This document shows positions 1,596 to 37,814 of a stretch of 64,000 nucleotides of DNA, piece by piece; position 1 is the stretch's first letter, and each line of letters opens with the position of its first letter. Under the pieces are notes generated by a model that saw only the letters and a program-made list of their open reading frames with translations, did not search any database and was not told the origin of the DNA. The translations under genes were made by a program, and so were the position numbers. Source of the DNA: Pseudomonadota bacterium (GTDB taxonomy: Bacteria > Pseudomonadota > Gammaproteobacteria > Steroidobacterales > Woeseiaceae); NCBI GenBank assembly GCA_022572185.1, contig JACZWL010000001.1, positions 28,387 to 92,386 on the forward strand, read 5' to 3'.

Positions 1596-2444
1596 TTATT
1601 TGAACACACGGTGACTGAGCGCCGGAAATTCCCGGCGCAACTTTTGCGGCAGGGCCGGGTCCAGATCGCTGCTGATGACACAATTGCTTTCTGCTGCCTC
1701 GGCAAGAATCCGACCCCAGGGATCGATAATCAGCGAATGGCCATAGGTCGTTCTGCCGTCGCTGTGTCGGCCGAACTGACCGGGTGCAATCACATACGCG
1801 AGATTTTCGATCGCGCGAGCCCTGAGCAAAGTATGCCAGTGAGCATTTCCCGTCACAAACGTAAATGCTGCCGGAACCGACAGTACGACTGCCCCCATCT
1901 CGACCAGTTTGCGATACAGTTCCGGAAAACGTAAATCGTAACAGATTGAAAGGCCCACACAACCGACAGGTGTATCTTGAACCACGAGCTTTTCGCCTGG
2001 CATCATGCTGGCCGACTCCCTGTAGCGCTCACCGCGATCAGGTAGGTCGACGTCGAACAAATGAATCTTGCGGTAGCAATTCTGCGTATTCCCGTCCGCA
2101 TCCACGACCAGCGTCGCGCCATAGCAGCGGCCAGGATCCGTTGACCTGAGGGGAATACTCCCGGAAATTATCCATAAGTTGTTGTTGCGCGCCGCATCGG
2201 CGAGAAAATCCTGAATCGGGCCGGCTCCCAGCTCTTCGGCATGTTGAAGCTTGTCTGTACCCCGCGCACTCATGAACGGAAAATTCTCCGGCAGGACTGC
2301 CAGCGCGCAACCGTCGGCTGCAGCTTCCGTGAGCAGCCGGGCAGCGAGTTCCAGGTTTTGCTTCAGATTGTCGCCGCTGTTCATTTGCACAGCTGCAACC
2401 CGAACCGGTGACGATGCTGAATCCTGTTTGCTGTTGTCAGACAC
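1596..2444 (-). CDS. Carbon-nitrogen hydrolase (Nit-type amidase)
   Basis: 282 aa. Nitrilase-superfamily Glu/Lys/Cys context is present (LPENF, RKIHLFD, SICYDLRFPE). Confidence 0.8.
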   Translation of the reverse strand: MSDNSKQDSASSPVRVAAVQMNSGDNLKQNLELAARLLTEAAADGCALAVLPENFPFMSARGTDKLQHAEELGAGPIQDFLADAARNNNLWIISGSIPLRSTDPGRCYGATLVVDADGNTQNCYRKIHLFDVDLPDRGERYRESASMMPGEKLVVQDTPVGCVGLSICYDLRFPELYRKLVEMGAVVLSVPAAFTFVTGNAHWHTLLRARAIENLAYVIAPGQFGRHSDGRTTYGHSLIIDPWGRILAEAAESNCVISSDLDPALPQKLRREFPALSHRVFK

Positions 2445-2451
2445 GGTTTTT

Positions 2452-5400
2452 CTATTCCGCTTGCTGCAGGCAGCCGGCCGCTTCGTAGGTTTTCGCGAAT
2501 TGCTCCGCGTCCGTTACTTCCATCGTCGGTTCGTCCCAGGAACCGCCGATGCTGTAATAGACCTGTCCCATATCGTGCAAGGGTTTCTTGAATATCTGCG
2601 AGAAAATCAACAGGGCGGCCGCAACCCCCGGTCCCGCGACCACCGCACCCACGATGGGTAGCGTATTGCCAAGGCTTGCGCTGACCATCGCGGACTGTTC
2701 GTAGTCGCGCGATCCCAGCCCTGCCCGGCCGACGATGCCGATATCTGCGGCGGGACTTTTTAGTGACAGGTCGCAGGTAAATGTTTCACCGCTGACAACG
2801 CGGAAGTTTCCGGTAATTTCGTCAAACCCGAAACCTTTCCCCAGCACGTCACGAAAATCCAGCGCCAGGCGCCTGGGCAGGGCGACGACACTCAAGAGAC
2901 CGAAGACGCGGCCTGCGCCCGGTTCGACTTCGTCGAGTTGTCCGGAGCCCAGGCGAATGCCGATGTTGCCGTCCAGATGGGCAAGAATATCTTCACGCGG
3001 CCCACCTGGCCAGCTCACGTCGATGTCGACCTCCATATCCCGGCCGACAATGCCCGGCTGATAGTTCAGGCGCGCTGTGGTTTGCTGGATATCTCTGCTT
3101 ATGAGCTTTGCCGTCAGGTAACTGCGCTGGCCGGCGTCATCTGCCGGCTCGACCACCCATCGCCCGGTACCACTCATCTCGAAACTGTCATCCCTGGTCG
3201 TGATACTCACTGCCTCGAGACCCGTTTCCATGCGTACAAATTCGGCCTCAAGGCTGCCGAAATGACGCAGTCCCAAGGCGAAGTCGTCGACCTTGATGGA
3301 AAGTGGTGGCAGCGTGCGTGGATCGGTCAAGTCGCTAACATCGCGTTGGACTTCATCTCTCCCCGGCAGAATCAGCCTTGCCATATCAACGACCAGCGGC
3401 TTGTCGCCGGAGAAATCGTAGGGCACAACCAGCGAACCGATGGCTTCTTCACCGTCAATCTCGATAAGCCATTCTTCGGCGCCACGGTCTACCCGGACCC
3501 GATGCCTCGAAAAATGCTGCCCCAGTGCATAAAGGTTATCGACAATCAGATCTATCGACCGTATGCGTGCACCGAAACCGGGGCTATCAGACCCCTCCGG
3601 CCGCATGTTCAGCCACTCGTTTAGCCGGATTTCGGGTGTCTCGCCGACGATATGCAGTCCCCGCGTCTCCGGTTCCATTACTTCTGCACCGCCGACGGCG
3701 ATAACGCCCCGGTCGAAATCCCATTGCTCCTGCTCTTTCAGAAAATTCACTGACCATTTGAAGTTTTCAGCGGAACGACCAAACGAGTCGATTCGACCAG
3801 CCCCGGGAAATTCGATGCGCATTGACAGGGGCCGGGTCTCGCCGGGCGCTTTTCCGACAGGCGCCGGGAATTCGAGGGCGAGGCCTTCGAGGTTCGTTTC
3901 AATCGCGATATGCAGGGGCACCGGCTGCTCTACGTCGCCACGGGAAAACAGGATTCTTGCGCTGTAAGGGGTGGAGCCCCGCAGCCGGCCCGCAAGCGGC
4001 AGGCCAAGTTCCCGGATCAGGCCTTCGCCGCTAACGATACCTGTCGCTGACGCGATGACGGAGTATTTTGGCATAGCGTCTGTAGCACGAGCCAGATCAA
4101 TACTGACCGGCTCGCCAAGAAAACGCCCTGTCAGCGTCTCTGATTGAATGCGGTCGCGGGTCACCGTGACCAGACCGCTGAGTTCGGTAAGGGGAGGTGT
4201 GAATCCTTCAATGCTTAAGCGGCCATTGTTGCTGCGAACGCCGACCGTGAACGCGTAATTCAACTTGTCAGCGAGCGGGTAGCGCAATTGCAAGTCGAAT
4301 GATGTCTCGCCGTCGACCTGAATACGGTCGAGCTGGCCGCCGAATACATTGGCAATCGGACTTTGCATCGATAATTGACGCATGGTCTCGAGCGTGCCCG
4401 TTACGTAGGCGTCGACCGTCAGTACCGGCTCCCTTAAATCAGCGATTTCAACTTTTGCGTCTACCGTACTGTTGCCAACAGTTGTCCCGGAGTTGTGATT
4501 TGAATAAAAGTGCATGTTATCGACGAAAATATCCGCATTGAGTTGTTCGACCATGGGCCAGCTTGGGTGATATCTCAGCGCCAGGTCTTCGATCTGTGCC
4601 TCGACCCGGAATGACCCTTCTCCATCTTCGAAGGGAAACTTGTCGAGCGGCCCGGTAAACCGGATCGTGCCCCGCGGCACACGGCCGGCAACCAGTGCGT
4701 TATCAAACCAGGCGTATAGATTCGGCTTCATCAGTTTACCGGGCAGATAACGGGAAACTGCCGAGAGGTCGGTGATGTTCCAGTTGCTGACGAAGTCGAT
4801 CACCGGGGAACCGCCGTTTGCCGGCAAGCTTATTTGCAGGCTGCTGCGGGTGTCGAGCTCTGCATTTCTGATGCGAACACTGTCGGAGAGAATGATCGTG
4901 GTCTCGCTATTACGGCGCCAGATGACGGTGCCGATCGCATCGTCGAAATCGATGGGTTCAGCGAGAAATTCCGGCAAATCCAGCCGCAAATCGCTTGACT
5001 CGATCTCAATTCGCCCGCCGGAGCGGTCCGCACGAACCTGACCACTGAATCCGCTCACGCCAGGCCACTTGTTTCTTGCCCTGATACCAGCTTCCTGGAG
5101 CTCGGCCGACAAATCGAAACGGACGGATTCTGACTCAAGATCCGCAAGCCCTAACTCGAAACCGTGTACCATGCCGGACGGCCCGAATGCATCCAGCATC
5201 GATCTTTGTCTCTCCGGCAACCAGGGGGTCAATAGCTTCAGATTATCGAGATTTATGAACGACGCGCGGGCATTCACTGTCAGGATCTTGCCCGATGTAT
5301 CGGTCGTCACGTCGACCCGAATAGAGGAATTGGGCCATTCGCCGGCAATCGTCTGGAGCCTGAAATTATCCGCCGCGAGCAACCAGCCCCCCGGGTCATG

Positions 5401-31895: not shown

Positions 31896-32450
31896 TTAGA
31901 GCTTCCCTTTGTCGTGAGCAACCATCGTGCGATTGAAACTGTACAGCATCGCTACCCGGTTTCGCGGCTCGAGCCCCGCCTCGACCTCTTCGTGAATCAG
32001 TTCGCGCAGACCACCGCTTGCATCTTCATAATCGAGTTGAACGAAGCCGTGTCTTGCGTAGAAAGGCGCATTCCACTGCAAGTGTCGAAACGTAATCAAA
32101 GTGATACCCGGGAATCCGGCAGCCCTTGCCCAGCTAATAACGGCGTCCAGCAGCTGACTGCCGATCCCCTGCCGGCCGTGCTCCGGATGAACGCCCATTT
32201 CCTCGAGATGCGCGTAAACATCGACGCTGCGGGCCAGAGCAAACCCGACCGCATTTTTCTTTTCGTCTAACGCGATCCATAAACGCTGGGCACGCTGTGC
32301 CTCGATCAGGGTCTCTGTGTCGGTAATGAGAAAACGCAGTTCGGGCGGCAGGTCGGCTTCGGTGAACATTGCGGCGGCCGCCTGTTCAATGGCGGGTATT
32401 GCCCGCAGGTGGTACTCCGCTGCGAGTTCGATCGTGTAATGCTGCCGCAT
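31896..32450 (-). CDS. GNAT-family N-acetyltransferase
   Basis: 184 aa with acetyl-CoA motif A (HPEHGRQGIGSQLL). Last gene of the giant-protein operon. Confidence 0.7.
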   Translation of the reverse strand: MRQHYTIELAAEYHLRAIPAIEQAAAAMFTEADLPPELRFLITDTETLIEAQRAQRLWIALDEKKNAVGFALARSVDVYAHLEEMGVHPEHGRQGIGSQLLDAVISWARAAGFPGITLITFRHLQWNAPFYARHGFVQLDYEDASGGLRELIHEEVEAGLEPRNRVAMLYSFNRTMVAHDKGKL

Positions 32451-32471: not shown

Positions 32472-33104
32472 TCAGGACGACGAATCTATAAAGCCGTCAG
32501 CTTCGAGCTGGCGGTCATGGATACGACCGAGAAACGCCAGTGCGATGACTGCCCCAAACAGCGCATAAGCCATGTCGGACTGCGTATCCCAGACGTATCC
32601 CTGCGTTCCCAGGAACGCCTCAGCTGCATCTTCTGATGTCAGGGCAACGATCCATTCAATTAACTCATACAGGGCGCTAAAGCCCAGGCAAAAGCTGACA
32701 ATGAAAAAATCTCGCCATCCAGCATAGTTGAATACGCGATGACGCACGACGATTTCTCGCGCAATCATGGCCGGCACGAATCCTTGCACGAAGTGCCCGA
32801 GTTTGTCGAAATTATTCCTCTCGAGGTCAAATGTTTCGCGCAACCAGTCGAACAGCGGCACCTCGGCGTAGGTATAGTGGCCGCCGATCATCAGGATAAG
32901 GCAGTGGATGAGAATCAGGACATAGACCATCCTGGTCAGTCGAAACAGGCTGCGCGTGTACCAAAGAATCGCAGCACCCAGAAGCGCGGGGAAGACCTCG
33001 AGAAACCAGGTCGCATAGTCCTTCGGGCCGATTCCCGACCAGAGCAGCACAATCAGGAATATGGCTATCCAGGCATATTGCCTGGCTGGCGATATGGCAT
33101 TCAT
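32472..33104 (-). CDS. DUF2238 (YjdF-like) inner-membrane protein
   Basis: 210 aa, multi-TM, with GGHYTYAEVP and LGHFVQGFVPA segments typical of YjdF-like proteins. Its ATG directly follows the upstream stop (TAAATG). Confidence 0.7.
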   Translation of the reverse strand: MNAISPARQYAWIAIFLIVLLWSGIGPKDYATWFLEVFPALLGAAILWYTRSLFRLTRMVYVLILIHCLILMIGGHYTYAEVPLFDWLRETFDLERNNFDKLGHFVQGFVPAMIAREIVVRHRVFNYAGWRDFFIVSFCLGFSALYELIEWIVALTSEDAAEAFLGTQGYVWDTQSDMAYALFGAVIALAFLGRIHDRQLEADGFIDSSS

Positions 33105-36100
33105 TTACGGCTCCTTGTGCGCAGATCCGGACAAGTCGAGACCTCGTCTTGGTCGCCACAGGCCCTGACTGACGAAACACTCCCATACCCAGGGAAGCCA
33201 TCTCAGCAGGGCGAAACTAAGCCAAAGGGCCCAGGCCAGTAAAAGAACCTTGTAGGTCCACATTGGCAGTGAAAAAACAGACGCAGCAGGTAATACGGTA
33301 TCGCTCCTGTCTGCAAACCAGCGAAGTGTATTGCCGGCAGATCCATTTCCGGCAATGTGCATGTCCGGTGTGCCGAGCAGGCCGCCTGGCAAACTGACTA
33401 CGATCGATGCAAGTGCAATCACTGAGACCATTGCAAAAATCACTTGCAGTAAATTGAACTGCCACCATGGAACATCAGGTTTCCAGTTGCGGCGTGCGCC
33501 AGTTGCCAGTAGCCAGACAACGACCACGGCCAGCACGGACCAGGAAAAAGTACTGAAGCCCAGCCCGAGGAGGACCCAATGGCGCGTGTTCAATGGCGTC
33601 ACTTTTATGCGACCCAGAATCAGGGCAAAGAGAACCAGCGCTGCCAGTTCAGACCAGTACATGACGGCGGGACCAAGCCTCGGGCCGCTGGTCGCGAGCA
33701 CCCATCGATTGGGTGGCAGTTCAATGGAAAGGTTGATATTGCTGGCTGCCGCAGCAAGATCGAGATCGCGGACAGTCTCACGAGAAGCCATTTGCCTTTG
33801 ATTCCGCCAGGCTATGTTCACTCTATGCTCGCCTGGCAGAATCGGAATGCTCAGTTCTCCCGATTCGGCGCGCAGCGGTTCGGTTTTTCCGTCGATTGAC
33901 ACGGAGCTTATCTCCGCACCGTCAGGCAATCGAATGACGTGCTGCGAGCCCCTCGTGCTACGGTAGGCAAGATTCAGATTCACCGTACGGGACCGCTCAC
34001 CAACGCTTGTTTGCATATGGACGGCATCAAATGCCAGCGTTGTACCGAGACTCGCTTCGGGGCGGCCTGCGACGAGCGTGAGGGTCTCGCCTGCCCGCGG
34101 ATAGAATTCCGCCACACGGATATCTCCGTCATCGTATGCTGATTCGCTCTCCGGAACGCCGCTGAAGTTTGTATGCCAGATGCTGCCAACCGCGAATCGC
34201 CACACTTCCTTCCACGGGCCGTCTGCTCGCGCCTTTAGCGTCAGTGGTGAATGCCTCGGCAGCATTGACCGCCAACTCACTGCGTTCTGGCCGGGGTTCA
34301 TCGTCACGAGCACTTCATCGTCAGTGACTGTGAAATCCTCACTGGTAATGGACTCGCCCTCAAGCAAGGGAACCTGCAAGGTCAATGCGCCCTGTTGCGG
34401 CGCGACCCGCACGACAGTCGTCGTCACCCACCAGTCGAGATCCATGCCTATCTCTCGTTCAATGCGCACGAATACCGGAAAACGACTACTTTCCCAGCGC
34501 GTCGTCGAATCGCCTTCACCCTGCTGTTGCAGTCGCGTCAGTTGCAATGATCCGGACAACAGTCGTCGATCCTGAATGCCCGCAATGAACCACGCGTCGG
34601 ACTCGGCACGAATGACCCGCGGCGGCGCCGGAAACGGCAGCTCGAGACTGTCCACCGGGGGGATCGGACCCCTGAGTGTCAATTGGTGGCGCCCTTCGGT
34701 GACTCGGATCCAAAGAACGTTATCGCTGTGCAGGAAGACCTGCGTAGCCGCTGCGCGATTGAGCAGTATCTGCTCCGGCCTCCAGCCCTGTAATGAGCCT
34801 GGCAACGGCACCGCAACCTCTTCCAGGGCGTGCAGCTCGAGCCTGACTGTCAGCACGTCGGCGTCAACAACAACGGACGCATCGACGATCTCTGCACAAT
34901 TCGGCGTACAAGGCGGTGCCGCAAGCAGGCGCTTTTCAAGTTCTACGAGAATGGCTGATGACGGCGTGTCGGCATTTGCCGTCGGACTTGCGGTCAGTGC
35001 CGCAACCACCAGCAAGAACCCAGGTAAGGCGCTGGCCGTTGTGCCGGACGTCTTTGCAATGCCGCCCGGCCACTGCCAGCGGCGATTCAATATTTCGAAC
35101 GCGAACACGGCGGCGAATGCGCCCAGCAACAGCACTGCGGCGAATCGAACGCCGCTGACGAGCCAGCGTGGCATGACGAAGAGGCGCAGCGTTCTTTCGG
35201 CATCGACGGGGCCGCTCCAGGTCAGCCGGTAATTGTTCCAGCGCCATGAAGGCCTTCCCGGACCTGCCTGCACGATGGCATTCGGTGCATAGCGTGCGTA
35301 GCTTCTTGCTTGCGCCCTTTTCCGGGCCACGATTAAGGTATCCCCTGCCCCGCCCAGTTCAAGTAAGCCAGGCTCAGGGCGCTTGCGGGCGTCAGACGTA
35401 AAATCCTGATCCTCAGCTGCGATACTAGACAATGCTGCTGCCCTGTCGGCCGGGCTTGCCGGGCCGAATACGTCAAATGTACGGGCAACCTGGGATTCGA
35501 GCTGCGGGTATATGGCAATGCGCAGCTGGCCGGTCACAAAGGGCACGAGAAAAACGATCAGCAAGGCAAAACTGAACCCTCTGTACAGCTTGAGGTAACG
35601 CATCAACCGGCCTGCCGGCGCCACCCGCAGCAGCGCGATGGCAGCCAGCATATTGAGCCAGGTCCATTCAGGCGCGCCAAACTCGTGCAAGCTCAAGGTC
35701 AACGCGAAAAACGCAACGGCGCCGGTTGCTCGGCCGAATAAGCGCGCGGCAGCAATTGTGATGATCAACACCAGAAAGAAGTCCAGCAGCTTCCAACGAT
35801 CGACCCAGCTGCCAGGCGAACGGTCAGCGCCGACGGCGGCGATCAGCTTGTGTCCGGGAGGCAGGCTGAGATTGGTACTGACCCGATTGAAAGTTGTCTG
35901 CCAACCGCTCACCGGCATTTTGCCGCGTGTCTCAGACCGTCCAAGCGCATGCAGATCAACGTTGGCCTGCCGCAACTCGACACCAGCCAGTCCTTCTCCG
36001 TCACCCCTGGTCACCAGGAGGTTTTCGCCCGCTTCCGCGGCACTGAGCAGTTCATAGGGCACCGCCATATCGAGGCGCCACCCGCTGCGCATCTTGCCGC

Positions 36101-37214
36101 CAACCCGATCGCTGAAGACGTAACCGTCACCGTTGAAGTCCAGCCACAGCTGTCGATTGAGTTGCAGGTCGTTGTCTGTCGCCACTTTGCCACGGCTGCG
36201 TTCGGCGATCGTCAGCGATTCGCCCGGTTCAATGCGAAAGGCCGGTAGTTCGACCCAGCCATCGGGCACCGACACCTGTGTCGGGTCAACAGGCCTCAGG
36301 GCTTCGGGCGCCGTCACTCTGAGCCGGTCGTTCGAGCGATAACTCCAGATCTCGGAATCCGGTAAATTGTGTTGGGGCGACGGCAATGTGATGCTGTTCA
36401 GCACACCGGGCCCCCGCGCAAGCAACGATATCTCCCATCTCCCCGGCCGCAGCTGCAGACGCAAATTGCCGTCCGGTTCGAACCGCGCCGGCAACTCGCT
36501 TTCGATCGCCAGTGGTACGAACCCATCGGGCAACGCAGGACCGATGAGTTCCTCGCGCACACTGCCTGCAACCTCTAAAAAAAGCGTCGTTGCCAATCGT
36601 GTCGGCACATCGTCAGCAACCAGACGGTAGACCTCGACACTTAGCGCGTCCTGTACCTGTTTCTGCTGCTCGCGCTCGCCCAGCCAGACACCGGATCGAT
36701 TCCGGTCCGGGCGGGAGACCCGGTCTCCGTCTATTGTCAGGTCAACCAGGCCCGTCTCGGCGGGAACCGCCAGCGTCCCCGGTCGTTCGTCCCATGCAAA
36801 CCGGCCCGCAATGTTGTAGCGGCCCGGTGAAAGCCGGATCGTGGGTGCTGAGCCGCGCATGACAACTGCGGCAGCCTGTCCGTTCGCGGTAACGCGCTGC
36901 GGCCAGTTTTCGGCGTTGCCAGGCAACGGCACCCACTCATCTGTCGCATAAATGGTCCATGACTGACTGAAACGCCCGCCGTGCGCATTAATATTCAGAC
37001 TAAGTTGGTCCGGCCAGGCACAAATGAACCCGTTGCGTGCGGCTTCCCTCTGATTGAAGAAGAACGGGCATTCACGGTATTCCTGATCCTGCAGGACCCA
37101 ACCCGTCCATGACTGCAGTTCATCCGGTATATGAACGTCTGTCCTCGCGGCGTCAGCAGCCGCCGCCGTCAGTACCAGCAAGAACAGAAGTATCGATTTC
37201 AGACAAGTGGACAT
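33105..37214 (-). CDS. Giant secreted/membrane-anchored protein, unknown family
   Basis: Uninterrupted 1369-aa ORF with an N-terminal signal peptide, two large non-hydrophobic domains and three clusters of TM helices. No recognisable motif. Confidence 0.7.
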   Translation of the reverse strand: MSTCLKSILLFLLVLTAAAADAARTDVHIPDELQSWTGWVLQDQEYRECPFFFNQREAARNGFICAWPDQLSLNINAHGGRFSQSWTIYATDEWVPLPGNAENWPQRVTANGQAAAVVMRGSAPTIRLSPGRYNIAGRFAWDERPGTLAVPAETGLVDLTIDGDRVSRPDRNRSGVWLGEREQQKQVQDALSVEVYRLVADDVPTRLATTLFLEVAGSVREELIGPALPDGFVPLAIESELPARFEPDGNLRLQLRPGRWEISLLARGPGVLNSITLPSPQHNLPDSEIWSYRSNDRLRVTAPEALRPVDPTQVSVPDGWVELPAFRIEPGESLTIAERSRGKVATDNDLQLNRQLWLDFNGDGYVFSDRVGGKMRSGWRLDMAVPYELLSAAEAGENLLVTRGDGEGLAGVELRQANVDLHALGRSETRGKMPVSGWQTTFNRVSTNLSLPPGHKLIAAVGADRSPGSWVDRWKLLDFFLVLIITIAAARLFGRATGAVAFFALTLSLHEFGAPEWTWLNMLAAIALLRVAPAGRLMRYLKLYRGFSFALLIVFLVPFVTGQLRIAIYPQLESQVARTFDVFGPASPADRAAALSSIAAEDQDFTSDARKRPEPGLLELGGAGDTLIVARKRAQARSYARYAPNAIVQAGPGRPSWRWNNYRLTWSGPVDAERTLRLFVMPRWLVSGVRFAAVLLLGAFAAVFAFEILNRRWQWPGGIAKTSGTTASALPGFLLVVAALTASPTANADTPSSAILVELEKRLLAAPPCTPNCAEIVDASVVVDADVLTVRLELHALEEVAVPLPGSLQGWRPEQILLNRAAATQVFLHSDNVLWIRVTEGRHQLTLRGPIPPVDSLELPFPAPPRVIRAESDAWFIAGIQDRRLLSGSLQLTRLQQQGEGDSTTRWESSRFPVFVRIEREIGMDLDWWVTTTVVRVAPQQGALTLQVPLLEGESITSEDFTVTDDEVLVTMNPGQNAVSWRSMLPRHSPLTLKARADGPWKEVWRFAVGSIWHTNFSGVPESESAYDDGDIRVAEFYPRAGETLTLVAGRPEASLGTTLAFDAVHMQTSVGERSRTVNLNLAYRSTRGSQHVIRLPDGAEISSVSIDGKTEPLRAESGELSIPILPGEHRVNIAWRNQRQMASRETVRDLDLAAAASNINLSIELPPNRWVLATSGPRLGPAVMYWSELAALVLFALILGRIKVTPLNTRHWVLLGLGFSTFSWSVLAVVVVWLLATGARRNWKPDVPWWQFNLLQVIFAMVSVIALASIVVSLPGGLLGTPDMHIAGNGSAGNTLRWFADRSDTVLPAASVFSLPMWTYKVLLLAWALWLSFALLRWLPWVWECFVSQGLWRPRRGLDLSGSAHKEP

Positions 37215-37303
37215 TTTCGACTCCCGAAGCCGGGTTGAGGGCTTTGTCTCCCTCGCACTATAACCGTGAACGCCAACTCGCGGTGATCAGGTCCAGTGCC
37301 GGC

Positions 37304-37644: not shown

Positions 37645-37814
37645 CTAAGCTGATGTTGAAAAAGTCATCCATGACTTATTCAACCACGCGATCCGAAAAG
37701 TGCGATTTTCGGATCGCTCACATTTTTGATGGCCGTAAGCCATTAAAAATGACGGTACATCCCTGTACCGACCAGCACGCCGCCAAAAAACAGGGTTTTT
37801 CAACAGCCGGCTAA
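37645..37814 (-). repeat. 170-bp multi-hairpin intergenic repeat, copy A (inverted relative to copy B)
   Basis: Its reverse complement aligns end to end with 44870..45039. Shared hairpins include GGTACAGGGATGTACC and GATCCGAAAA-N6-TTTTCGGATC, plus GTTGAAAAA-containing terminal inverted repeats. Confidence 0.8.

What the first reader, a model, noticed from the sequence alone, without database searches (positions are those of the whole stretch)
33105..37214. 1369-aa envelope protein with a duplicated 'signal - large ectodomain - TM cluster' layout and no recognisable family
**Seen in translation.**
- A cleavable-type signal peptide (MSTCLKSILLFLLVLTAAAADA).
- A non-hydrophobic domain of about 450 aa.
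- About four TM helices (about aa 475-562).
- A charged segment of about 120 aa rich in Arg and Ala.
- Two more hydrophobic helices. The second (aa about 728-748, ALPGFLLVVAALTASPTANA/DT) looks like an internal signal peptide with an AxA site.
- A second non-hydrophobic domain of about 430 aa.
- A final cluster of about 4-5 TM helices ending in a Trp-rich tail.

I see no catalytic or repeat motif that I can name. The layout suggests a fusion of two similarly organised modules. The ORF is unbroken for 4.1 kb in a window that contains several decayed genes.
Basis: partly seen in the sequence, partly recalled or inferred. Interest (0 to 1): 0.6.

Follow-up and report, generated by a model that had tools for sequence, protein, structure and literature searches.

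The report
Two-module unannotated bacterial membrane protein
This is a real gene for a 1369-residue inner-membrane protein made of two ancient copies of one module (export signal, large periplasmic beta-sandwich domain, five membrane helices); it belongs to a very large bacterial family that no database names and whose function is unknown.

Summary
Every element of the layout was confirmed.

- **No named family.** Pfam, NCBIfam and PDB sequences give no match, even with a family profile. The family is nevertheless large: 3435 clusters at 50% identity, almost all 1330-1460 aa. It occurs in Gammaproteobacteria, Desulfobacterota, Verrucomicrobiota and other diderm phyla.
- **Duplication.** Profile-profile comparison shows the two halves are homologous (96.5%, E 1e-9, 380 collinear ectodomain columns; reversed control E 0.48).
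- **Fold.** AlphaFold models (pLDDT 85 and 80) give each module the same order: anchor helix, all-beta ectodomain, four helices, beta-hairpin, fifth helix. In Foldseek each ectodomain independently hits the non-catalytic oligosaccharyltransferase subunit Ost1/ribophorin I best (E 1e-7 to 1e-8, but TM-scores only 0.12-0.24).
- **Topology.** Lys+Arg density across 141 homologues puts both ectodomains in the periplasm.
- **Internal signal.** The internal signal-like segment is conserved. In two lineages the modules are separate genes split exactly there.
- **Context.** There is no conserved operon and no STT3 in the genome.

Function is inferred only: probably a heterodimer-like periplasmic binding platform. 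This scan met the same family before on other DNA (e1-3924834, e1-4117620).

The parts
33105..37214 (-). Whole ORF, 1369 aa plus stop (P0001)
   Evidence: Full-length homologues.
37221..37225 (-). Shine-Dalgarno GGGAG, 7 nt upstream of the ATG
   Evidence: read from the sequence.
37149..37214 (-). N-terminal signal peptide, aa 1-22 (MSTCLKSILLFLLVLTAAAADA)
   Evidence: Hydrophobic segment; helix 2-22. All aligned homologues have a signal-like N-terminus. Cleavage is inferred.
35805..37148 (-). Periplasmic ectodomain 1, aa 23-470: a short helix, then all-beta sandwiches. Invariant C49 and C65.
   Evidence: AlphaFold model with pLDDT mostly above 90. Best Foldseek hits are Ost1/RPN1, E 1.8e-7. 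Cys are invariant in 144 of 144 representatives.
36123..36146 (-). Conserved motif WLDFNGDG, aa 357-364 (family consensus WLDFDGxG...D369)
   Evidence: It resembles a calcium-binding loop, but position 363 is variable, so that reading is weak.
35511..35795 (-). Membrane helices A-D of module 1, aa 474-568
   Evidence: Helices 476-493, 495-508, 516-531 and 536-568. Loop K+R density alternates 0.25 / 0.05 / 0.22 / 0.03.
35280..35501 (-). Variable Ala/Arg-rich linker, aa 572-645, predicted disordered and periplasmic by topology
   Evidence: Low conservation and many gaps; pLDDT below 50 for aa 597-650.
35091..35279 (-). Conserved loop (QxGPGxPxW), beta-hairpin aa 661-681 and helix E aa 683-708 of module 1
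   Evidence: W657 in 144 of 144. Natural stand-alone N-modules end just after this helix.
34971..35090 (-). Short cytoplasmic loop plus internal signal-peptide-like segment, aa 709-748, ending ANA/DT
   Evidence: A positive n-region, apolar run and Ala-rich c-region are conserved in 141 + 144 homologues. pLDDT is low at 44-58. The same position is a true N-terminal signal peptide in the split gene of G022.
33675..34970 (-). Periplasmic ectodomain 2, aa 749-1180, homologous to ectodomain 1. Invariant C769 and C773.
   Evidence: hhalign E 9.7e-10. Model. Best Foldseek hits are Ost1/RPN1, E 2.8e-8. Conservation.
33171..33674 (-). Membrane helices A'-D', conserved loop GLLGxPDMxxxGNGS, beta-hairpin and Trp-rich helix E', aa 1181-1348
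   Evidence: Loop K+R density 0.21 / 0.00 / 0.20 / 0.04. Q1257 is invariant in 144 of 144.
33108..33170 (-). Basic cytoplasmic tail, aa 1349-1369
   Evidence: K+R density 0.23 across homologues.
32472..33104 (-). Downstream gene for a DUF2238 ('Wok' family) membrane protein. Its ATG directly abuts the stop codon of the large ORF.
   Evidence: Pfam PF09997, E 3.2e-56. It is the same-strand neighbour only in Woeseiaceae-like and Lysobacterales loci, 6 of 18, so it is a lineage-specific partner at most.
31896..32450 (-). GNAT acetyltransferase gene, next downstream on the same strand
   Evidence: Pfam Acetyltransf_1, E 7.7e-17. Not conserved with the family.

Best explanation
**Shown.** The gene encodes a polytopic inner-membrane protein that arose by tandem duplication of one module. 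Each module has, in order:
- an export signal;
- a short helix with a conserved cysteine pair;
- an all-beta periplasmic domain of about 400 residues, built from beta-sandwiches of the kind seen in Ost1/ribophorin I and in the N-domain of M1 aminopeptidases;
- five membrane helices (out-in, in-out, out-in, in-out, then a periplasmic loop with a beta-hairpin, then out-in).

Both ectodomains face the periplasm. Both module ends are cytoplasmic.

**Inferred.**
- The conserved internal signal-like segment (aa 729-748) re-exports the second ectodomain.
- Signal peptidase I probably cuts after it. The polypeptide would then behave as two paralogous subunits that pair into a pseudo-symmetric heterodimer.
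- The cytoplasmic loops are tiny. There is no ATPase or kinase domain and no conserved operon partner. No catalytic motif is universally conserved.
- The most likely role is therefore a non-catalytic periplasmic binding or holding platform, anchored in the inner membrane, for an envelope polymer (a glycan or an exported polypeptide). This is analogous to what Ost1 is thought to do beside the catalytic subunit of oligosaccharyltransferase.
For: - **Real, conserved gene:**
- **Duplication:** hhalign 96.5%, E 7.8e-10 over 484 columns. Ectodomains alone give E 9.7e-10; the reversed control gives E 0.48.
- **Same element order in both modules:** AlphaFold models with mean pLDDT 84.9 and 79.8.
- **Topology:** Lys+Arg density of the loops alternates high and low across 141 homologues, for both modules. 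Four cysteines in the ectodomains are invariant.
- **Fold:** each half independently has Ost1/RPN1 chains as its five or six best PDB hits (E 1.8e-7 to 2.8e-8, prob 1.00, about 375 of about 435 target residues). The next class of hits is the N-domain of M1 aminopeptidases/LTA4H.
- **Ost1 itself:** it is described as two similar beta-rich luminal domains that bind glycosylated peptide (PMC7226087).
- **Internal signal:** the n/h/c layout and an Ala-rich c-region just before the conserved [YF]PP are kept in all aligned homologues. Its pLDDT is low, unlike the bundle helices.
- **Natural fission exactly at this boundary:** in G022 the N-module stops after helix E, and the C-module gene on another contig starts with its own signal peptide. 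Candidatus Magnetomorum has a stand-alone 699-aa N-module.
- **No partner genes conserved:**
Against: - No experiment or expression data exist for any member.
- Cleavage at aa 748/749 is not shown. The apolar run plus c-region (median 19 residues) could also serve as an uncleaved membrane anchor.
- Foldseek TM-scores to Ost1 are low (0.12-0.24). No sequence method links the family to Ribophorin_I, so the resemblance may be only a shared beta-sandwich fold.
- The membrane halves are not significantly similar in sequence on their own (E 0.27).
- Pairing of the two modules was not modelled.
- Several polar residues near the periplasmic membrane surface are well conserved: D478 119/144, R565 129/144, Q1257 144/144, D1302 143/144. 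These could instead mark an active or transport site.
Confidence: 0.4

Rival explanations
1. It is a membrane-embedded enzyme acting at the periplasmic face of the inner membrane on a lipid or lipid-linked substrate. The beta-sandwich domains would hold the polymer part of the substrate.
For: Conserved polar residues cluster at the periplasmic ends of the helices and in the D-E loops: D478, H510/E511, Q563, R565, Q571, Q1257, the PDM...GNGS loop and D1302. In Woeseiaceae and Lysobacterales the gene is followed, here with abutting stop and start codons, by a DUF2238/'Wok' protein. That family is predicted to be a lipid head-group enzyme with an outward-facing site (bioRxiv 10.1101/2025.01.14.632903). 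One Syntrophobacteraceae locus has a PMT_2 glycosyltransferase next door.
Against: No known catalytic motif is present. H510 is kept in only 89 of 144 representatives and E511 in 112 of 144. There is no Pfam or PDB relative. The DUF2238 link is limited to one clade, 6 of 18 loci. Other neighbours are unrelated to each other.
Confidence: 0.2
2. It is a proton-motive-force-driven transporter or translocation helper with RND/SecDF-like logic. That layout is (TM + large periplasmic domain + 5 TM) x 2, encoded fused or split, with periplasmic domains that move.
For: The count and order of hydrophobic segments (1+5+1+5) and the two large periplasmic domains copy the RND/SecDF layout (the RND layout is from general knowledge). 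Fused and split gene versions both exist, as for secDF.
Against: No ACR_tran, SecD_SecF, MMPL or Patched match at any threshold. No RND chain appears among the 50 best Foldseek hits of either model. The 'TM1/TM7' equivalents look like signal peptides with low pLDDT. No charged pair lies in mid-membrane; the conserved charges sit near the periplasmic surface. A long periplasmic loop with a hairpin separates helices D and E, unlike RND.
Confidence: 0.1
3. It has the same architecture but is not processed. The internal hydrophobic segment is a permanent eleventh membrane helix, and the protein works as one chain.
For: The apolar run plus c-region has a median of 19 residues, enough to span a membrane. 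Almost all of more than 3000 family clusters keep the fusion. The crude -3/-1 rule used here is permissive.
Against: The Ala-rich c-region followed by an acidic residue sits at a fixed distance from the conserved [YF]PP motif. AlphaFold does not pack this helix confidently (pLDDT 44-58). In natural split versions the N-module lacks this segment altogether, and the C-module uses it as an ordinary N-terminal signal.
Confidence: 0.35
4. It is an accessory subunit of a bacterial N-glycosylation (oligosaccharyltransferase) machine, and a true homologue of Ost1.
For: Ost1/RPN1 are the best structural hits for both halves.
Against: The 96%-complete genome has no STT3/PglB family gene, while the archaeal controls did match. 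There is no Ribophorin_I sequence match. The protein has five helices per module instead of Ost1's single anchor. No glycosylation genes are conserved nearby.
Confidence: 0.03

Closest known systems
Ost1 / ribophorin I (non-catalytic subunit of eukaryotic oligosaccharyltransferase; Pfam Ribophorin_I PF04597)
   Same: Signal peptide followed by beta-sandwich domains on the non-cytoplasmic side of the membrane, then a membrane anchor. It is the best Foldseek hit for both ectodomains (E 1.8e-7 to 2.8e-8, about 375 aligned columns). No catalytic residues are known in either.
   Different: No sequence similarity is detectable. TM-scores are only 0.12-0.24. This protein has five helices per module against one in Ost1, and the module is duplicated. 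It is bacterial, and the genome has no STT3.
N-terminal beta-sandwich domain of M1 aminopeptidases / leukotriene A4 hydrolase
   Same: Single-domain structural matches of 150-175 columns with rmsd 3-8 A and probability 1.00.
   Different: No peptidase (HExxH) domain follows. Those enzymes are soluble or single-pass. There is no sequence similarity.
RND superfamily / SecDF
   Same: Internal duplication of 'hydrophobic segment + large periplasmic domain + five helices'. Both fused and split gene forms exist (the RND layout is from general knowledge).
   Different: No sequence or listed structural match. The first segment of each repeat looks like a signal peptide. The periplasmic domains are all-beta. 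There is a long periplasmic D-E loop and no mid-membrane charge relay.
Gram-negative YidC (signal anchor, periplasmic beta-supersandwich P1, five helices)
   Same: Same order of parts and the same N-out/C-in topology of the five-helix core (general knowledge).
   Different: No 60KD_IMP or YidC_periplas match. There is no cytoplasmic coiled-coil hairpin. YidC does not appear among the 50 best Foldseek hits.
Cytochrome b/c1 polyprotein (FbcH) of Bradyrhizobium japonicum
   Same: A precedent, from my own knowledge and not checked here, for a bacterial membrane polyprotein cut at an internal signal peptide into two subunits of one complex.
   Different: Unrelated proteins. In this family the cleavage is only inferred.

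Membership tests
Ribophorin_I / Ost1 (PF04597) | Sequence match to the family profile | tested here: not met
   No Pfam hit for P0001 at E <= 0.1. None in 34 diverse members at E <= 5. PF04597 found nothing in the genome (but its controls were silent too). The family profile against PDB sequences did not find Ost1/RPN1.
Ribophorin_I / Ost1 (PF04597) | Two tandem beta-sandwich domains on the luminal/periplasmic side with the Ost1 fold | tested here: inconclusive
   Foldseek E 1.8e-7 to 2.8e-8 and prob 1.00 for both halves, but TM-scores 0.12-0.24 and rmsd 16-22 A. No domain-wise superposition was possible.
Ribophorin_I / Ost1 (PF04597) | Single C-terminal membrane anchor and partnership with an STT3 catalytic subunit | tested here: not met
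   Five helices per module. No STT3 (PF02516) in the 96%-complete genome, while four archaeal controls matched.
RND / SecDF superfamily | Match to ACR_tran, SecD_SecF, MMPL or Patched profiles, or to their structures | tested here: not met
   No such Pfam hit. No RND chain in the 50 best Foldseek hits of either model.
RND / SecDF superfamily | (1 + 5) x 2 hydrophobic segments with large periplasmic domains after segments 1 and 7 | tested here: met
   This is a resemblance of layout only.
YidC/Oxa1 insertases | 60KD_IMP five-helix core and YidC_periplas domain profiles | tested here: not met
   No hit.
Sec-type (SPase I) signal peptide, internal copy at aa 709-748 | Positive n-region, apolar h-region, small residues at -3/-1, followed by an exported domain | tested here: met
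   Median n-region charge +2, h-run 15 residues, and Ala commonest at -3 to -6 before the conserved Pro751, across 141 and 144 homologues. The same segment is N-terminal in the split gene of G022.
Sec-type (SPase I) signal peptide, internal copy at aa 709-748 | Actual cleavage by signal peptidase I | not testable with these tools
   This needs protein chemistry. No SignalP was available.
DUF2238 / 'Wok' (neighbouring gene 32472..33104) | Match to PF09997 above the gathering score | tested here: met
   E 3.2e-56, 189.5 bits against a cut-off of 26.4.

The most novel reading that the evidence does not exclude
The family is a previously undescribed, widespread piece of envelope machinery in diderm bacteria. 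It would be a membrane 'polyprotein' cut by signal peptidase at a conserved internal signal peptide into two paralogous subunits. Their Ost1-like periplasmic domains would share ancestry with the ribophorin I subunit of the eukaryotic and Asgard glycosylation machine, and would hold glycans or exported polypeptides at the outer face of the inner membrane.
Probability: 0.15. Interest if true: 0.75.

Novelty: categorically new. Interest (0 to 1): 0.55.

Why it matters
Thousands of bacterial genomes from at least seven phyla carry this single-copy 4-kb gene. Yet no curated family, solved structure or paper found in the searches run here covers it. It is therefore a sizeable blind spot in envelope biology.

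Three features make it directly testable:
- a clean internal duplication;
- a conserved internal export signal, which predicts processing into two subunits and is rare for bacterial membrane proteins;
- ectodomains whose nearest structural relative is a eukaryotic oligosaccharyltransferase subunit, which bears on where such accessory subunits came from.

The function claim is weak, and the family has already been met by this scan on other DNA. This window adds a member and some new evidence: the topology statistics, the natural split genes and the conservation of the internal signal. It does not add a first discovery.

Tried and rejected
- **Plus-strand reading of the coordinates:** full of stops; the gene is on the minus strand.
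- **Named families:** Pfam and NCBIfam on the protein, on 34 diverse members and on the six longest members gave nothing.
- **PDB by sequence and by profile:** nothing.
- **Conserved gene neighbourhood:** ORF clustering over 12 + 18 loci and Pfam of flanking genes gave unrelated neighbours: SSF, aminotransferase, AHSA1, UPRTase, PycTM, GAF-HD, PMT_2, ABC exporter. Only DUF2238 recurs, and only in one clade.
- **DUF2339 + DUF3999 pair upstream in one Desulfobacterales locus:** hhalign of the DUF3999-like protein against the family gave probability 1%, so they are not related.
- **Domain fusions in unusually long members:** none. The 2060-aa frame in G075 is a spurious in-frame extension over an ABC exporter gene.
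- **Apparent split genes:** G015, G324 and L045 are frameshifts. G374 and G967 are contig breaks. Only G022 (with relative P0393) and Candidatus Magnetomorum (P0506, P0488) are accepted as real fissions.
- **Membrane halves compared alone:** not significant.
- **Calcium-loop reading of WLDFNGDG:** weakened because position 363 is variable.
- **His510-Glu511 as catalytic pair:** weakened by 62% and 78% conservation.
- **OST-subunit idea:** rejected because the genome has no STT3.
- **Size limits met:** a 1369-aa query was too long for the representatives search, so aa 1-1200 was used. The first structure job was too large, so a 52-row alignment was used.

Full report
**1. Observation**

The coordinates hold an ORF on the minus strand. 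The plus strand is full of stops. The reverse complement translates without a stop into 1369 residues, kept as P0001. A GGGAG Shine-Dalgarno sequence lies 7 nt before the ATG.

A Kyte-Doolittle scan finds hydrophobic segments at aa 1-23, 474-500, 541-570, 683-711, 724-746, 1180-1209, 1213-1241, 1250-1283 and 1319-1343. It also confirms the Ala/Arg-rich linker (A 14.8%, R 12.5% over aa 563-690) and the Trp-rich C-terminal part (W 8.2%).

**2. The gene is real and conserved**

- A word-indexed search returned more than 2800 relatives. The best 120 are all about 1350-1390 aa, and those that carry a source name are all 'hypothetical protein'. The closest named sources are Woeseia/Woeseiaceae.
- An exhaustive HMMER search with aa 1-1200 found 3435 clusters at 50% identity with E <= 0.001, and 1720 with E <= 1e-30. 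Nearly all of the best 150 are full length.
- The window's own genome (3.14 Mb, 96% complete) has one copy.
- Matches were found in 50 of 400 sampled genomes of the class, in 18 of 301 of the phylum of a Desulfobacterales carrier, and in 28 of 301 of the phylum of a Verrucomicrobiaceae carrier.
- Named records also include Dongiaceae, Lysobacterales, Rhodanobacteraceae, Rudaea, Methylococcales, Beggiatoa relatives, Nitrospira, Acidobacteriota, Myxococcota, Bdellovibrionota and Candidatus Scalindua.

**3. No named family**

- Pfam and NCBIfam give nothing for P0001.
- Pfam gives nothing consistent for 34 diverse members, even at E <= 5, and nothing for the six longest members.
- PDB sequences give no relative with the single protein or with a 142-sequence profile.

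**4. Internal duplication**

- BLASTP of the halves gave one weak hit: aa 95-138 against aa 802-848, E 0.002.
- Profile-profile comparison of a 141-sequence alignment settled it. N half against C half gives 96.5% probability, E 7.8e-10, over 484 collinear columns (about aa 64-568 against about aa 772-1282).
- With the ectodomains alone the result is the same: 96.5%, E 9.7e-10, 380 columns. A reversed-sequence control gives E 0.48.
- The membrane parts alone are not significantly similar in sequence (E 0.27). Their equivalence rests on the models and on the collinear extension of the full alignment.

**5. Structure**

Two AlphaFold2 jobs were run with 52-row alignments:
- aa 1-720: mean pLDDT 84.9.
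- aa 470-1369: mean pLDDT 79.8.

Both modules show the same order of elements:
- an N-terminal hydrophobic helix;
- a short helix;
- about 400 residues of beta strands;
- four helices (476-493, 495-508, 516-531, 536-568; and 1186-1201, 1210-1221, 1225-1243, 1250-1280);
- a loop with a beta-hairpin (661-681; 1296-1317);
- a fifth helix (683-708; 1318-1348).

The linker aa 597-650 and the internal signal-like helix aa 729-741 have low confidence.

In Foldseek against the PDB, each model's best hits are chains of yeast and human oligosaccharyltransferase:
- N model: 7oci_A, 6ezn_A, 8agb_E, 8b6l_O and 6c26_1, E 1.8e-7 to 1.2e-5.
- C model: 6ezn_A, 7oci_A, 8pn9_E, 6c26_1, 6s7o_E and 8agb_E, E 2.8e-8 to 5.7e-7.

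By my knowledge of those entries, and by their lengths, these chains are Ost1 and ribophorin I. The alignments cover about 375 of about 435 target residues. However, TM-scores are only 0.12-0.24. This is expected if the domain arrangement differs, but it is also a warning. The next hits are the beta-sandwich N-domains of M1 aminopeptidases and LTA4H (150-175 columns, rmsd 3-8 A). A review describes Ost1 as two similar beta-rich luminal domains plus one membrane helix, thought to hold glycosylated peptide (PMC7226087).

**6. Topology**

Across 141 homologues the Lys+Arg density of the loops alternates:

| Loop | K+R density |
|---|---|
| A-B | 0.25 |
| B-C | 0.05 |
| C-D | 0.22 |
| after D | 0.03 |
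| E to internal signal | 0.18 |
| A'-B' | 0.21 |
| B'-C' | 0.00 |
| C'-D' | 0.20 |
| D'-E' | 0.04 |
| tail | 0.23 |

By the positive-inside rule each module has five membrane passes. Both ectodomains and both hairpin loops are periplasmic, and both module ends are cytoplasmic. Four ectodomain cysteines (C49, C65, C769, C773) are invariant in 144 of 144 representatives. That fits a periplasmic, disulfide-forming location.

**7. The internal signal peptide**

- In all aligned homologues, helix E is followed by a basic stretch, an apolar run and an Ala-rich c-region. This ends a few residues before the conserved [YF]PP..LL...RLL..P.C.P.C start of ectodomain 2.
- The internal and the N-terminal signals have similar h-run lengths (medians 15 and 14) and the same median n-region charge (+2).
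- In 144 representatives, Ala is the commonest residue at -3 to -6 before Pro751, and Asp/Glu at -2.
- I could not run SignalP, so cleavage is an inference.

Natural gene fission supports it.
- In genome G022 (closest named relatives are Beggiatoa-like) a 713-aa gene encodes the N-module and stops 6 residues after helix E. A separate gene on another contig encodes the C-module. That gene starts with an ordinary signal peptide, MNFKRKFTYFHLCVWLVGNLFAALTYA/ES. Both genes lie well inside their contigs. A 79%-identical relative (P0393) ends the same way.
- Candidatus Magnetomorum HK-1 has a stand-alone 699-aa N-module inside a 44-kb contig.
- Other apparent splits were frameshifts (G015, G324, L045) or contig breaks (G374, G967).

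**8. Context**

- In the window the stop codon is directly followed by the ATG of a DUF2238 gene, and then by a GNAT gene. A cupin gene lies upstream. uvrA and uup flank the group on the other strand.
- DUF2238 is the 'Wok' family of the Lipocone superfamily. It is predicted to be a membrane enzyme acting on lipid head groups (bioRxiv 10.1101/2025.01.14.632903).
- This neighbour recurs only in Woeseiaceae-like and Lysobacterales loci, 6 of 18.
- Elsewhere the neighbours are unrelated to each other.
- The genome has no STT3/PglB gene, while archaeal controls matched. It also has no Ribophorin_I match.

**9. Interpretation**

*Shown:* a conserved inner-membrane protein built from two homologous modules with periplasmic all-beta domains.

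*Inferred, moderate confidence:* the second ectodomain is exported by the internal signal. That signal is probably cut, giving two subunits that pair.

*Inferred, low confidence:* a non-catalytic binding platform for an envelope polymer, by analogy with Ost1. The supporting points are the tiny cytoplasmic loops, the lack of any energy-coupling or signalling domain, and the lack of a universally conserved catalytic motif.

The conserved polar residues near the periplasmic membrane surface keep an enzymatic or transport role open: D478 119/144, R565 129/144, Q1257 144/144, D1302 143/144. The layout also recalls RND/SecDF and YidC, but no sequence or listed structural match supports membership.

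**10. Earlier notes of this scan**

- A follow-up on another genome (e1-3924834) reached the same description: a duplicated beta-sandwich module resembling Ost1.
- I reached the same reading from my own searches before seeing those notes. They are not independent evidence.

**11. Verdict**

The family is unnamed and far from anything characterised, but its function remains a hypothesis. Interest 0.55.

Noticed in passing
window 32472-33104 (-) and 31896-32450 (-): A DUF2238/'Wok' membrane protein gene starts on the base after the large ORF's stop codon, and a GNAT gene follows it. The DUF2238 link recurs only in Woeseiaceae-like and Lysobacterales loci (L014, L016, L031, L034, L035).
   Followed up: partly
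L039 (G022:C156) 2443-4581 and L040 (G022:C207) minus-strand ORF (2074-4149 counted on that strand; tblastn match at 2380-4233 in + coordinates): In one Beggiatoa-like genome the family gene is split into two complete genes on different contigs. The break is exactly at the cytoplasmic loop before the internal signal peptide. Two relatives in the same family (G237, G384) keep the fused gene.
   Followed up: yes
L046 6001-8100 (Candidatus Magnetomorum sp. HK-1, JPDT01001437.1): A stand-alone 699-aa N-module, followed by a convergent glycosyltransferase gene. The whereabouts of a C-module in that genome could not be checked because the genome is not held.
   Followed up: partly
L028 1261-7891: In a Desulfobacterales MAG the family gene follows, 14 nt downstream, a DUF2339 (1287 aa) and DUF3999-like (932 aa) pair of large membrane proteins. 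The DUF3999-like protein is not related to the family (hhalign 1%).
   Followed up: partly
L043 (G015:C115) and L044 (G324:C212): Family genes interrupted by single frameshifts inside conserved regions. These are either pseudogenes or assembly errors.
   Followed up: no
window 37688-37717 (+): A 12-bp-stem hairpin (GCGATCCGAAAA...TTTTCGGATCGC) lies between the cupin gene and uup. It lies inside the 170-bp repeat that another note of this scan describes (e1-2983996).
   Followed up: no
P0001 aa 341-349 (window about 36168-36194, -): An invariant Arg-Gly (family consensus RRGDPxPAPD) sits in a loop that AlphaFold leaves at pLDDT below 50. A conserved but flexible surface loop is a candidate partner-binding site.
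   Followed up: no
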